64,000 bases of DNA, from contig VMEP01000001.1 in the NCBI GenBank assembly GCA_007375595.1, positions 10,061-74,060 on the forward strand, read 5' to 3'. The stretch is from Parcubacteria group bacterium LiPW_30. Its GTDB lineage: Bacteria > Patescibacteriota > Minisyncoccia > Phycocordibacterales > VMEP01. The stretch's first letter is position 1. The number at the start of each line of letters is the position of its first letter. The notes below the pieces were generated by a model that did not search any database, had not been told where the DNA came from, and saw nothing but the letters and a program-made list of their open reading frames with translations. Positions 60,750 through 61,981 of this stretch are shown here, piece by piece. A program made the position numbers and the translations under genes.

Positions 60750-60896
60750 ATTTTTGTTTAGTTATTAATAAAATGAATTAATTAATAGAAGCCCTTGAAA
60801 CAACAATCATACACTACTTTATAACAAATACGGCAATATAATATTCCATCTGTATATAGCTGTCAAAATAACTTTTTTTTATTAAATTAATCTGGT

Positions 60897-60925
60897 TTGA
60901 CATAATTATTATTACGTTGTAATAT
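60897..60925 (+). promoter_or_regulatory. Near-consensus sigma70 promoter for the alpha-CTD-like gene (TTGACA-17-TAATAT).
   Basis: ttgaca (60897-60902), 17-nt spacer, taatat (60920-60925), about 50 nt upstream of the ATG at 60976. Confidence 0.5.
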
Positions 60926-60975
60926 CTCAAGAGCAGACCTTTCCTAGTTAATACCACTAAACGGAGGAACACGAA

Positions 60976-61500
60976 ATGGCAGGAATCTCTCACGAGTTAA
61001 GTAAGCTCGCCGACGAACTGAGCAAGATCGAGTCCCAAACCAACGCGGCACACGTGCGCCTCGGTGGTGCGAAAACGAAGCTCAATTCCGCGCAATTGCA
61101 CCTCGATACGATGCAAGCCGCATTCCAATCGGCAGAAAAGCAACTGGCAGATGTGAACGATCGCAAGGCAGCTTTACTGAAGCAAGTCACCGATCTCGTC
61201 AAAGCCGAGATTCCTCCCGTCCGGGATGATTCAATCTCGGCAATGAGAATCGTCAACGCCGCCGAGTTTCCAGTGCTGACACTAACCGTGAGCGATCTCG
61301 AACTCAATGTACGCCCTGAAAATTGCCTCAAAGGGGCTTCCATCTATTACCTCGGTGACTTAGTTCAACTTACCGAAGCCGAGGTCTTGGAAATTCCGAA
61401 CTTCGGCCCCAAATGCCTGCAAGAAACACTGGAAGCCCTTTCTTTTCGTGGCCTCACTCTCGGCATGAAGGTCACGGGCTGGTCACCCCCTCAGCCTTGA
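60976..61500 (+). CDS. Standalone RNA polymerase alpha-subunit C-terminal domain (alpha-CTD) homologue fused to an N-terminal coiled coil; encoded in a GC-rich (about 52%) islet.
   Basis: C-terminal SDLELNVRPENCLKGASIYYLGDLVQLTEAEVLEIPNFGPKCLQETLEALSFRGLTLGMKVTGWSPP aligns residue-for-residue with RpoA alpha-CTD (E. coli [66 protein letters not shown]). N-terminal 90 aa are heptad-rich. Strong SD ACGGAGGAACACGAAATG and a strong terminator follow. Confidence 0.7.
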   Translation: MAGISHELSKLADELSKIESQTNAAHVRLGGAKTKLNSAQLHLDTMQAAFQSAEKQLADVNDRKAALLKQVTDLVKAEIPPVRDDSISAMRIVNAAEFPVLTLTVSDLELNVRPENCLKGASIYYLGDLVQLTEAEVLEIPNFGPKCLQETLEALSFRGLTLGMKVTGWSPPQP

Positions 61501-61528
61501 ACATTCGCATTTGGTGGCCTTAGACACC

Positions 61529-61562
61529 AACCCCCGCATGACATGCGGGGTTCTTCTTTTTT
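61529..61562 (+). terminator. Intrinsic terminator of the alpha-CTD-like gene.
   Basis: aacccccgcatgacatgcggggtt + cttctttttt. Confidence 0.7.
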
Positions 61563-61729
61563 AAAAGAGTAATTTACTACGTTGGATTTCCGAATTTTAA
61601 TACTCTTAAAATACTTTTTTAAAACATTGCGCAGTGCGACGGCACGAGCATAGTAAATTTTTAGCAAAAAATTATACGTGTTTTAAAAAAGTATTTTAAA
61701 AAGATAGATGTTGCATTTTTTACTACCCT

Positions 61730-61981
61730 TTGGTAGAGTTTTTACATATGGAACTTATCGCTACTGCCCTACCGTGGGCCCAAGTTGCGCTTTCCGCTCT
61801 ACTCATTGCCGCAATACTGCTTCAGCAGTCCGGTACTGATACAGGCGGGGCCTTAGGTGGAGGAGAAGGATCAAGCTGGCAAAACAGCAAAAGAGGAGTA
61901 GAAAAAATACTCTTTAATGCAACGATAATAATCGCTCTTTTGTTTGCTGTCTCTTCTTTTCTTGCTCTCGTCGTCCGATAA
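61730..61981 (+). CDS. secG: Preprotein translocase subunit SecG.
   Basis: ALSALLIAAILLQQSGTDTGGALGGGEGSSWQNSKRGVEKILFNATIIIALLFAVSSFLAL, the SecG two-TM pattern with a Gly-rich loop. The start may be the ATG at 61748. Confidence 0.75.
   Translation: MVEFLHMELIATALPWAQVALSALLIAAILLQQSGTDTGGALGGGEGSSWQNSKRGVEKILFNATIIIALLFAVSSFLALVVR

What the first reader, a model, noticed from the sequence alone, without database searches (positions are those of the whole stretch)
60897..61562. Standalone RNA-polymerase alpha-CTD homologue with a coiled-coil N-terminus, carried on a GC-rich, self-contained expression cassette
The last 70 residues of the 174-aa ORF are an unmistakable alpha-CTD, the domain of RpoA that contacts UP elements and class I/II activators. 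It is not attached to an alpha-NTD. Instead it follows about 90 residues of predicted coiled coil. The gene has about 52% GC against a backbone of about 33%. It has its own near-consensus sigma70 promoter, a strong SD and a strong terminator, and sits divergently next to groES/groEL. A dimeric free alpha-CTD could act as a decoy or anti-activator, could compete for UP-element DNA, or could recruit other factors to RNAP-binding activators. I am not aware of a described family of free-standing coiled-coil/alpha-CTD proteins. Its composition suggests horizontal acquisition, possibly from a high-GC host or a phage.
Basis: partly seen in the sequence, partly recalled or inferred. Interest (0 to 1): 0.75.

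Follow-up and report, generated by a model that had tools for sequence, protein, structure and literature searches.

The report
Strain-variable free alpha-CTD protein cassette
A tiny groundwater bacterium (Parcubacteria/CPR) carries an optional, fast-diverging 829-bp single-gene cassette encoding a long coiled-coil rod tethered to a free copy of the DNA-binding tail domain of RNA polymerase's alpha subunit; similar free domains turn out to be common in phages, and no study of them was found.

Summary
ORF 60976-61500 (174 aa) has one 77-residue helix with an unbroken 11-heptad repeat, a disordered linker and a high-confidence alpha-CTD (Pfam E 2.7e-16; TM 0.94-0.97 to E. coli alpha-CTD). There is no alpha-NTD. 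It has its own promoter, SD and terminator, and GC is 53% against 37% for the window.

New findings:
- The unit is an 829-bp presence/absence polymorphism (60869-61697). Strains with identical GroES have an empty groES-secG site or one of four alleles only 50-72% identical.
- The alleles are mosaic and not each other's closest relatives.
- It belongs to a rare metagenome-only family (~25-30 clusters), always a single gene among housekeeping genes.
- Its alpha-CTD is proteobacterial-type (46-89% identity to betaproteobacterial alpha-CTD, 28-47% to B. subtilis). DNA-contact residues are kept; the activator-contact patch is not.
- Free alpha-CTD proteins are not unique: at least 127 IMG/VR phage contigs encode small ones, with unrelated N-termini, in early replication/recombination modules.

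Best reading: an accessory, horizontally exchanged, oligomeric binder of A/T-tract DNA that acts in trans as a mimic or competitor of RNAP alpha-CTD. A split alpha is unlikely but not formally excluded, because the host rpoA could not be retrieved.

The parts
60869..61697 (.). Whole cassette: an 829-bp segment present in the window and replaced by 21 bp in the empty-site sister genomes
   Evidence: Local alignment of the L012 groES-secG intergenic region to the window. The left homology ends at 60868 and the right homology resumes at 61698. The empty site is seen in two independent assemblies, L026 and L027.
60870..60886 (+). A/T tract upstream of the -35 element, resembling an UP element (2 mismatches to the consensus)
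   Evidence: Such matches are common in this window (117 against ~49 expected), so this is weak evidence on its own.
60897..60925 (+). Sigma-70-type promoter: TTGACA, 17 nt spacer, TAATAT
   Evidence: 10 of 12 matches. The -35 element and spacer are conserved in alleles B and C; the -10 element varies (TAATCT, TAGCCT).
60963..60967 (+). Shine-Dalgarno sequence GGAGG, 8 nt before the ATG
   Evidence: Read directly from the sequence. Conserved in alleles B and C.
60976..61500 (+). ORF of 174 aa: the coiled-coil/alpha-CTD protein (P0001)
   Evidence: dN/dS is 0.35 against allele B.
60979..61209 (+). Residues 2-78: a single long helix of 11 unbroken heptads (core residues L L T L L L F L K V / I L I A A A M A V L L)
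   Evidence: AlphaFold pLDDT ~95. Heptad table and heptad-sized indels across the family.
61210..61260 (+). Residues 79-95: a flexible linker, variable in length and sequence across the family
   Evidence: pLDDT below 50 at residues 83-88. Family alignments.
61261..61485 (+). Residues 96-170: the alpha-CTD fold. R113, N116, C117, G144, K146 and C147 correspond to E. coli R265, N268, C269, G296, K298 and S299
61532..61560 (+). Intrinsic terminator: 8-bp stem with 6 GC pairs, 3-nt loop, then a T-run
   Evidence: The stem is kept, with sequence changes, in alleles B, C and D.
61606..61699 (.). Perfect 21-bp inverted repeat with a 52-nt loop, at the right end of the cassette; function unknown
   Evidence: -32.6 kcal/mol, z = -4.96. 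Allele C has different arm sequences that still pair. No Rfam family matches.

Best explanation
The gene encodes an accessory, horizontally exchanged protein. An N-terminal coiled coil of about 11 nm oligomerises it. Through a flexible linker, the coiled coil displays two or more copies of a proteobacterial-type alpha-CTD.

The domain keeps the residues that alpha-CTD uses to read the narrow minor groove of A/T tracts (UP elements). The protein most likely binds A/T-rich, UP-like DNA in trans. It would then occupy, bridge or compete for the sites that RNA polymerase's own alpha-CTDs use, and so modulate transcription. The layout mirrors both alpha itself (dimerisation module, linker, CTD) and H-NS-type proteins (coiled coil, linker, AT-rich minor-groove binder).

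The gene is a dispensable single-gene cassette in a variable hotspot between groES and secG. Alleles are replaced and recombined between lineages.

Shown: domain identity and fold, architecture, conservation of DNA-contact residues, cassette boundaries, presence/absence, allele mosaicism, purifying selection.

Inferred: oligomerisation, DNA binding, and the effect on transcription.
For: - Alpha-CTD identity and fold.
- Single 77-residue helix with a perfect heptad register and heptad-sized indels.
- Disordered linker.
- DNA-contact residues are conserved about as well as the hydrophobic core: R265 17/19, N268 17/19, G296 17/19, K298 15/19 (plus 2 Arg), S299 15/19. The activator-contact residue V287 is 2/19.
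- R265 is invariant in 64 distinct phage free alpha-CTD proteins.
- The gene is functional and not decaying: dN/dS 0.35, with intact ORFs in ~25-30 clusters.
- The gene is accessory and exchanged: empty site in L012/L026/L027; alleles A-D 50-72% identical on a backbone 92-100% identical at groESL; mosaic blocks; alleles C and D are closer to family members from other contigs.
- GC3 is 0.59 against 0.32 for groEL, and family genes in other lineages match their ~46-57% GC contigs.
- The host genome is A/T-rich, and UP-like tracts are 2.4 times over-represented.
Against: - No experiment or expression data support it.
- The oligomeric state and helix orientation are unknown; the monomer model cannot show them.
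- Two family members have lost R265 (W, H), and allele D has K298E and S299A. DNA binding may therefore not be universal.
- A core nucleoid protein would not be expected to be dispensable and hypervariable.
- The effect on transcription is inferred entirely from E. coli alpha-CTD biology.
- The host's own RpoA and promoter architecture were not examined.
Confidence: 0.45

Rival explanations
1. Conflict gene. The free alpha-CTD is a mimic used in a phage-host arms race, or in one between the symbiont and the organism it lives on. It could be a domesticated phage 'moron'-type gene that interferes with incoming phage transcription. It could be a decoy that titrates phage factors targeting host alpha-CTD. 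Or it could be an effector that mimics the alpha-CTD of a proteobacterial host of this episymbiont.
For: - Presence/absence polymorphism.
- Allele divergence far above the backbone: dN 0.174 against 0.008-0.013 in the flanks, and dS also 2-3 times higher.
- Mosaic, non-monophyletic alleles.
- A moron-like unit with its own promoter and terminator and a foreign GC.
- Many phages encode small free alpha-CTD proteins in early replication/recombination modules.
Against: - No phage, defence or secretion genes lie nearby in any of about 10 contexts.
- PADLOC and PHROGs give no real hit.
- The family N-terminus is absent from IMG/VR.
- There is no signal peptide or effector domain.
- Overall dN/dS is below 1, so diversifying selection is not demonstrated.
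- The hosts of these CPR bacteria are unknown.
Confidence: 0.25
2. Protein-protein decoy or adaptor. The free alpha-CTD titrates or recruits proteins that normally dock on RNAP alpha-CTD (activators, sigma region 4, NusA-like factors) and does not act through DNA.
For: - E261 and E286 equivalents are conserved 17/19, and D259 13/19.
- The architecture presents multiple tethered CTDs.
Against: - The 287 determinant is poorly conserved: V287 2/19, and R317 never retained as Arg (Lys in 15/19).
- The best-conserved surface residues are the DNA-contact ones.
- From general knowledge, reduced CPR genomes have few class I-type activators; this was not tested here.
Confidence: 0.12
3. Split alpha subunit. 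The host rpoA encodes only the NTD, and this protein supplies the CTD in trans.
For: - The layout copies that of alpha (oligomerisation module, linker, CTD).
- The host rpoA could not be inspected.
- NCBI names the protein 'RNA polymerase subunit alpha'.
Against: - Sister strains with 100% identical GroES lack the gene at this site.
- The alleles are only 50-72% identical, which is implausible for an essential RNAP part.
- The family is extremely rare: no hit among the GTDB representative genomes with the two core N-terminal motifs (though that scan missed the divergent allele in L011), and 3 loci in 241 million JGI records.
- The alpha-CTD is of proteobacterial type, and codon usage is foreign.
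Confidence: 0.04
4. A decaying or neutral passenger gene with no current function.
For: - It is dispensable and diverges fast. dN/dS of 0.35 is 3-9 times higher than in the flanking genes.
Against: - The ORF is intact in every allele and in ~25-30 clusters.
- dN/dS is below 1 in both domains.
- Indels preserve the heptad register.
- The core and DNA-contact residues are conserved.
- The promoter, SD and terminator are conserved between alleles.
Confidence: 0.06

Closest known systems
C-terminal domain of bacterial RNA polymerase alpha subunit (RpoA alpha-CTD, Pfam PF03118), especially the beta/gammaproteobacterial type
   Same: - Same fold (TM 0.94-0.97).
- 53-58% identity for the window protein and up to 89% for other family members.
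- The UP-element DNA-contact residues R265, N268, C269, G296 and K298 are retained.
- The domain is tethered by a flexible linker to an oligomerisation module.
   Different: - There is no alpha-NTD (PF01000/PF01193), so it cannot assemble into RNAP core as alpha does.
- The oligomerisation module is a 77-residue coiled coil.
- The gene is accessory, strain-variable and monocistronic, and lies outside the ribosomal-protein/rpoA operon.
Small phage-encoded free-standing alpha-CTD proteins. [quoted passage not shown] At least 127 IMG/VR contigs carry them. I found no study of them.
   Same: - Small size (84-273 aa).
- No NTD, and the alpha-CTD is usually C-terminal after a helical extension of 36-99 aa.
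- R265 is invariant.
- Some have the same overall dimensions as the window protein: 169-175 aa with the CTD starting at residue ~92-99.
   Different: - The N-termini are not homologous to this family (best hmmsearch E 0.0067), and the family's N-terminal motifs are absent from IMG/VR.
- The alpha-CTDs are only 33-52% identical.
- The phage genes sit in replication/recombination modules. This family sits among housekeeping genes on contigs that look like CPR chromosomes.
H-NS-like nucleoid-associated proteins and xenogeneic silencers (H-NS, MvaT, Lsr2, Rok): a convergent class
   Same: - Same design and size: an N-terminal coiled-coil oligomerisation domain, a flexible linker, and a small C-terminal domain that reads the minor groove of AT-rich DNA.
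- H-NS paralogues are also carried on horizontally transferred DNA. This point comes from general knowledge and PMC9410896, PMC5861252.
   Different: - No sequence homology to any of them (no Pfam hit).
- DNA bridging and silencing are untested.
- The gene is dispensable and hypervariable, unlike a core nucleoid protein.
Tandem alpha-CTD repeat proteins (2-11 repeats, some fused to T5orf172, ResIII helicase or sigma-70 region 4)
   Same: - They reuse alpha-CTD outside RpoA as a modular domain.
- They share the 'PNFGRKSL' flavour of the motif.
- One protein, P0167, joins a coiled-coil N-terminus like that of the family's short subfamily to two alpha-CTDs.
   Different: - They achieve multivalency by repeating the domain within one chain, not by a coiled coil.
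- They have different partner domains and are mostly much larger.

Membership tests
RNA_pol_A_CTD domain (Pfam PF03118) | Profile HMM score above the curated gathering threshold | tested here: met
   59.5 bits against a cutoff of 23.8, E 2.7e-16, residues 99-155.
RNA_pol_A_CTD domain (Pfam PF03118) | The compact helical (helix-hairpin-helix) fold of alpha-CTD | tested here: met
   AlphaFold pLDDT above 90 over the domain. Foldseek against 3n4m, 1lb2, 3n97 and 8y5t gives TM 0.94-0.97 and rmsd 0.4-0.9 A.
RNA_pol_A_CTD domain (Pfam PF03118) | UP-element DNA-contact residues (E. coli R265, N268, C269, G296, K298, S299) | tested here: met
   The window protein has R113, N116, C117, G144, K146 and C147 (S299 replaced by Cys). 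Across the family these are conserved 13-17 of 19. Actual DNA binding was not tested.
RNA polymerase alpha subunit RpoA (TIGR02027 / NF003513 equivalogs) | N-terminal dimerisation and core-assembly domain (PF01193/PF01000), with the full-length model score above cutoff | tested here: not met
   Best NCBIfam score is 80.8 against a cutoff of 302, matching model positions 252-325 only. No NTD domain is found. The database name 'RNA polymerase subunit alpha' is an over-annotation.
RNA polymerase alpha subunit RpoA (split-subunit variant) | The host rpoA lacks its own CTD, and the gene is indispensable | tested here: inconclusive
   The host rpoA is not in the window or in any fetched locus and could not be retrieved. 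Empty-site sister strains argue against indispensability, but a second copy elsewhere in those genomes was not excluded.
Phage free-standing alpha-CTD proteins | Encoded in a viral genome or next to phage genes | tested here: not met
   All contexts consist of housekeeping genes. The N-terminal motif scan of IMG/VR was negative, and there is no PHROG hit.
Phage free-standing alpha-CTD proteins | Small protein with no NTD and an alpha-CTD preceded by a helical extension | tested here: met
   The architecture is shared, but the N-termini are not homologous.
H-NS-like nucleoid-associated proteins (functional class) | N-terminal oligomerisation coiled coil, flexible linker, and a C-terminal domain that binds the minor groove of AT-rich DNA | tested here: inconclusive
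   The predicted architecture fits. Oligomerisation and DNA binding are inferred and were not measured.
H-NS-like nucleoid-associated proteins (functional class) | Homology to Histone_HNS, MvaT, Lsr2 or Rok | tested here: not met
   No such Pfam or NCBIfam hit. Any relationship would be convergent.
Gre/DksA-type coiled-coil factors of the RNAP secondary channel | Antiparallel helical hairpin with an acidic tip, plus Gre/DksA domain homology | tested here: not met
   The model shows one continuous helix. The mid-helix segment 'RLGGAK' has no acidic tip. There is no Gre/DksA Pfam hit.
Known anti-phage defence systems (PADLOC) | Significant match to a defence-system protein model | tested here: not met
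   Only weak coiled-coil matches to LmuB and JetC (best E 7e-4, 16 bits).

The most novel reading that the evidence does not exclude
The cassette is a molecular mimic of RNA polymerase's alpha-CTD used in a genetic conflict. A proteobacterial-type alpha-CTD on an oligomerising rod is carried by CPR episymbionts. It is swapped between strains under frequency-dependent selection. Its role would be to titrate phage factors or promoter elements that depend on alpha-CTD, or to rewire transcription in a proteobacterial partner cell. Together with the phage-encoded free alpha-CTDs, it would define an unrecognised class of trans-acting alpha-CTD competitors for transcription takeover or exclusion.
Probability: 0.2. 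Interest if true: 0.8.

Novelty: new variant of a known kind. Interest (0 to 1): 0.58.

Why it matters
Alpha-CTD is a classic hub of bacterial promoter recognition (UP elements) and activator contact, and it is normally considered only as part of RpoA. This work shows three things:

- A coherent, uncharacterised family tethers a free alpha-CTD to a long coiled coil.
- The gene behaves as a dispensable, recombining, horizontally exchanged cassette in ultra-small CPR genomes.
- Free alpha-CTD proteins are widespread in environmental phage early regions.

If these proteins compete with RNAP for UP-like DNA or for alpha-CTD partners, they would represent a simple and general way to reprogramme transcription in trans. 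They would also give a handle on transcription control in CPR bacteria, which cannot yet be studied genetically. The protein is small and soluble-looking, so this can be tested directly in vitro. The work also flags a recurrent database mis-annotation, in which such proteins are named 'RNA polymerase subunit alpha'.

Tried and rejected
- **Phage origin of this family.** The N-terminal motif scan of IMG/VR was negative. There is no PHROG hit. The GenBank 'phage' hits cover only the alpha-CTD part; H2-H5 are annotated rpoA genes, and H6 and H7 proved to be full rpoA flanked by S4 and L17 genes on bacterial contamination. A direct phage source is not shown, although analogous phage proteins exist.
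- **N-terminal domain in other proteins.** The N-terminal-only profile search of 5.8 billion proteins returned nothing at E <= 0.01, so it was uninformative. The first N-terminal alignment was too diverse for the GTDB scan. The narrower one found no relatives, yet it missed the divergent allele in L011, so negative scans under-count the family.
- **Defence system.** PADLOC gave only coiled-coil noise.
- **Known RNA in the cassette.** Rfam found nothing.
- **Hairpin arms as special UP elements.** Rejected, because UP-like matches are common in the window (117 against 49 expected).
- **Integron cassette or attC.** Considered by eye. The gene has its own promoter, no integrase was seen among the annotated neighbours, and the arms lack the RYYYAAC/GTTRRRY cores. 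I did not pursue it further.
- **In-situ hypermutation (DGR-like).** Rejected. Strains with 99.6% identical groESL differ by one residue in the protein, so divergence comes from allele exchange.
- **Short 'standalone' alpha-CTD hits in the representative search** (P0117, P0118, P0122, P0128, P0134, P0145, P0146, P0150). These look like fragments or frameshifts of ordinary proteobacterial rpoA.
- **Host rpoA.** It is not in the window or any locus.
- **afdb50 fold library.** Unavailable.
- **Literature.** Eight searches found no paper on free alpha-CTD proteins.
Full report
**1.

The window has an ORF at 60976..61500 (+) of 174 aa. Pfam assigns residues 99-155 to RNA_pol_A_CTD (PF03118) at E 2.7e-16, with 59.5 bits against a cutoff of 23.8. 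The N-terminal half gives only sub-threshold matches to coiled-coil families.

NCBIfam RpoA models match only with their last ~75 positions and score far below cutoff (80.8 against 302). This is an alpha-CTD without an alpha-NTD. The source name 'DNA-directed RNA polymerase subunit alpha [Parcubacteria group bacterium LiPW_30]' over-annotates it.

Sequence search of the PDB gives E ~1e-20 to Xanthomonas and E. coli alpha-CTDs. Scores are much weaker for Bacillus, Mycobacterium and Thermus.

An AlphaFold model built on a 17-sequence family alignment has mean pLDDT 88.7. It has three parts:
- one continuous helix, residues 2-78, at pLDDT ~95;
- a disordered segment, with pLDDT below 50 at residues 83-88;
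- a compact helical domain.

The domain superposes on E. coli alpha-CTD structures with TM 0.94-0.97 and rmsd 0.4-0.9 A.

The helix carries an unbroken 3-4 hydrophobic repeat over 11 heptads. One core position is Leu/Phe. The other is Ile/Leu at the ends and Ala in the middle. Family members differ by deletions of exactly 7 or 14 residues and by one 7-residue duplication. That is what a real coiled coil predicts.

The -35/-10 pair (TTGACA, 17 nt, TAATAT; 60897-60925), the GGAGG at 60963-60967, and the GC-rich hairpin with T-run at 61532-61560 are all present. Gene GC is 0.533 (GC3 0.59), against 0.366 for the window and GC3 0.32 for groEL.

**2. It is a discrete, optional cassette**

I used the less conserved neighbouring gene (an SBP_bac_5 protein) as an anchor to recover sister genomes.

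L012 has GroES 100%, GroEL 98.7% and the SBP protein 90% identical to the window. It has only ~190 bp between groES and secG. Homology to the window stops at 60868 and resumes at 61698, and 21 unrelated bases stand in for 829 bp.

An exact-sequence look-up of GroES then recovered ten more assemblies from several groundwater projects. The site is occupied as follows:
- empty in two independent assemblies (L026, L027);
- allele A (174 aa): window, L023, L029, L032;
- allele C (178 aa): L024, L028, L030;
- allele D (167 aa): L025;
- allele B (174 aa): L002, found earlier.

The backbone is 92-100% identical at groESL in nucleotides. The alleles are only 50-72% identical in protein.

Against allele B, the gene has dN 0.174 and dS 0.50. 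The flanking genes have dN 0.008-0.013 and dS 0.10-0.26. dN/dS is 0.35, so the gene is still under purifying selection.

Strains with 99.6% identical groESL differ by a single residue in the protein. Divergence therefore does not come from local hypermutation.

The alleles are mosaics. B and C are 90-95% identical in nucleotides over the distal coiled coil and linker, but 50-70% identical in the N-terminal half and the alpha-CTD.

The alleles are also not each other's closest relatives. C is closest to P0007. D is closest to P0006 and P0005, the latter from a ~56% GC contig with a different gene neighbourhood (GC).

All four alleles keep ~53-55% GC in a ~38% GC backbone. Family genes elsewhere roughly match their 46-57% GC contigs.

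More distant relatives carry other cargo in the same groES-secG gap: a 368-aa gene in L015 and two small ORFs in L020.

Conclusion: this is a variable hotspot holding a horizontally exchanged, recombining single-gene cassette. The promoter, 5' UTR and terminator are conserved and could serve as homology arms.

**3. The family**

The single-sequence search found 7 members. The exhaustive representative search and a full-length profile search raise this to roughly 25-30 clusters of 151-206 aa with the same layout. All are metagenomic, and each is seen on 1-7 contigs.

The core N-terminal motifs are absent from 185,579 GTDB representative genomes and occur in only 3 of 241 million JGI records. 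These motif scans miss divergent members such as the L011 allele.

The gene is always a lone gene among housekeeping genes. Four sites were seen:
- groES | x | secG;
- gyrB | x | PaaX_M/pheST, next to sortase and CARDB genes;
- ABC-F | x;
- RNR | x | murJ.

No phage, plasmid or defence genes are adjacent.

The taxonomy of the non-window lineages was not verified. Their gene content looks CPR-like. The anchor loci around the window's clade are labelled Patescibacteria, Minisyncoccia, Giovannonibacteria or Saccharibacteria.

**4. Origin of the domain**

After the family itself, the best hits of the family profile are canonical RpoA proteins. Those that carry an organism name are betaproteobacterial (Burkholderiales, Rhodocyclaceae, Azoarcus), at ~150 bits on the alpha-CTD alone.

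Family alpha-CTDs are 46-89% identical to a betaproteobacterial alpha-CTD, 46-81% to E. coli, and only 28-47% to B. subtilis. The window allele is among the most diverged, at 58%.

The module therefore looks captured from a proteobacterial-type rpoA and not duplicated from the carrier's own gene. This is an inference, because I could not obtain a Patescibacteria RpoA for direct comparison.

**5. What the residues say**

I mapped E. coli numbering onto 19 family members.

DNA-contact residues of the '265 determinant' are conserved about as well as the hydrophobic core:
- R265 17/19;
- N268 17/19;
- G296 17/19;
- K298 15/19, plus 2 Arg;
- S299 15/19, otherwise Cys, Thr or Ala.

E261 and E286 are each 17/19.

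The activator-contact '287' patch is not kept: V287 is 2/19, and R317 is never retained as Arg (Lys in 15/19).

From the established biology of alpha-CTD (minor-groove recognition of A-tract UP elements through R265), DNA binding is the activity most likely retained. Contact with activators is less likely.

**6. Free alpha-CTDs are not unique**

The representative search found 6,635 proteins with alpha-CTD matches. Many have 2-11 tandem alpha-CTDs, and some are fused to T5orf172, a ResIII helicase or sigma-70 region 4.

A scan of IMG/VR with the family's alpha-CTD found 127 viral contigs. In the best 80, the ORFs are 84-273 aa, apart from one rpoA-like ORF (L076) and one 355-codon frame with an internal stop (L120). 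The domain is usually C-terminal, after a helical extension of 36-99 aa.

Their neighbours are replication initiators, Erf-like annealing proteins, helicases and RecE-like exonucleases. These are phage early-region genes.

R265 is invariant in 64 distinct phage proteins. G296, K298 and S299 were part of the search pattern, so their conservation there is biased.

The phage N-termini are unrelated to the window family.

Eight literature searches found no study of any free alpha-CTD protein.

**7. Mechanism**

Best-supported reading (confidence ~0.45): the coiled coil oligomerises the protein and presents two or more alpha-CTDs on flexible tethers. These bind A/T-rich, UP-like DNA in trans. They would compete with or occlude the sites used by RNAP's own alpha-CTDs, or bridge DNA.

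This layout parallels alpha itself and, convergently, H-NS-type proteins. The Leu/Ala core hints at tight antiparallel or four-helix packing. That is recalled knowledge of coiled-coil rules and was not tested here.

Rival readings:
- **Conflict-gene mimic (~0.25).** A phage-related decoy or an effector. It is favoured by the population genetics and the phage analogues. It has no support from gene context.
- **Protein decoy (~0.12).**
- **Neutral passenger (~0.06).**
- **Split alpha (~0.04).** It is disfavoured by the empty-site strains, the rarity of the family and the allele divergence. It is not formally excluded, because the host rpoA could not be fetched.

**8. Verdict**

The 'no such family' premise is softened by the abundant uncharacterised phage and repeat proteins.

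I rate it a new variant of a known kind: a known domain in a new, coherent architecture, with unusual population behaviour in CPR genomes. Interest is 0.58.

Noticed in passing
window 61606-61699; also L002 1287-1769 and the regions downstream of the gene in L024 and L025: A perfect 21-bp inverted repeat with a 52-nt loop lies at the right end of the cassette (z = -4.96). The loop holds a small hairpin, AAATTTTT-AGC-AAAAAATT, that recurs with compensatory changes in other alleles. In allele C the long arms have a different sequence but still pair. The region varies from 190 to 430 nt through module duplications. No Rfam family matches. It could be a small RNA, a recombination site or a protein-binding site.
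   Followed up: partly
window 60750-61760; L015 3978-5183; L020 1608-2769: The groES-secG intergenic gap is a variable hotspot in this group of Patescibacteria. It is empty in L012/L026/L027, holds the alpha-CTD cassette in the window's clade, holds a 368-aa gene in L015 (it looks NeuB/sialic-acid-synthase-like by eye; not tested), and holds two small ORFs (88 and 78 aa) in L020.
   Followed up: partly
L043-L122 (IMG/VR contigs): At least 127 viral contigs encode small free-standing alpha-CTD proteins. There are several distinct families of 84-273 aa, and R265 is invariant. They typically sit in phage replication/recombination modules. I found no study of them.
   Followed up: partly
proteins P0008, P0009, P0012, P0013, P0016, P0040 (one search hits): There are many non-RpoA proteins with 2-11 tandem alpha-CTD repeats. 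Some are fused to T5orf172, a ResIII helicase or sigma-70 region 4. P0167 joins a coiled-coil N-terminus like that of the family's short subfamily to two alpha-CTDs.
   Followed up: partly
whole window: Matches to the E. coli UP-element consensus (up to 2 mismatches) are 2.4 times more frequent than in dinucleotide-preserving shuffles (117 against 49). Many appear by eye to cluster near gene starts and ends.
   Followed up: no
L041 (MT835508.1) and L042 (MT836419.1): Two GenBank records labelled 'Bacteriophage sp.' from human faeces carry a full-length bacterial rpoA flanked by rpsD-like and rplQ-like genes. This is probably bacterial contamination or mislabelling in the phage collection.
   Followed up: yes
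window 60838-60866 (-) and 61710-61742 (+): The groES promoter (TTGACA, 17 nt, TATTAT) abuts the left edge of the cassette, back-to-back with the cassette's own promoter. secG keeps its own promoter (TTGCAT, 17 nt, TAGAGT) only ~7 nt upstream of its ATG, which suggests a nearly leaderless mRNA. Both are conserved in the empty-site genome.
   Followed up: no
L033 2331-2821: In one lineage the family gene is followed by a small ORF and a gene with a weak ParE_toxin match, a probable toxin-antitoxin pair. In L005 a gene with a weak Y1_Tnp (IS200/IS605-type transposase) match lies 650 bp downstream. These are the only hints of mobile elements near any family member.
   Followed up: no
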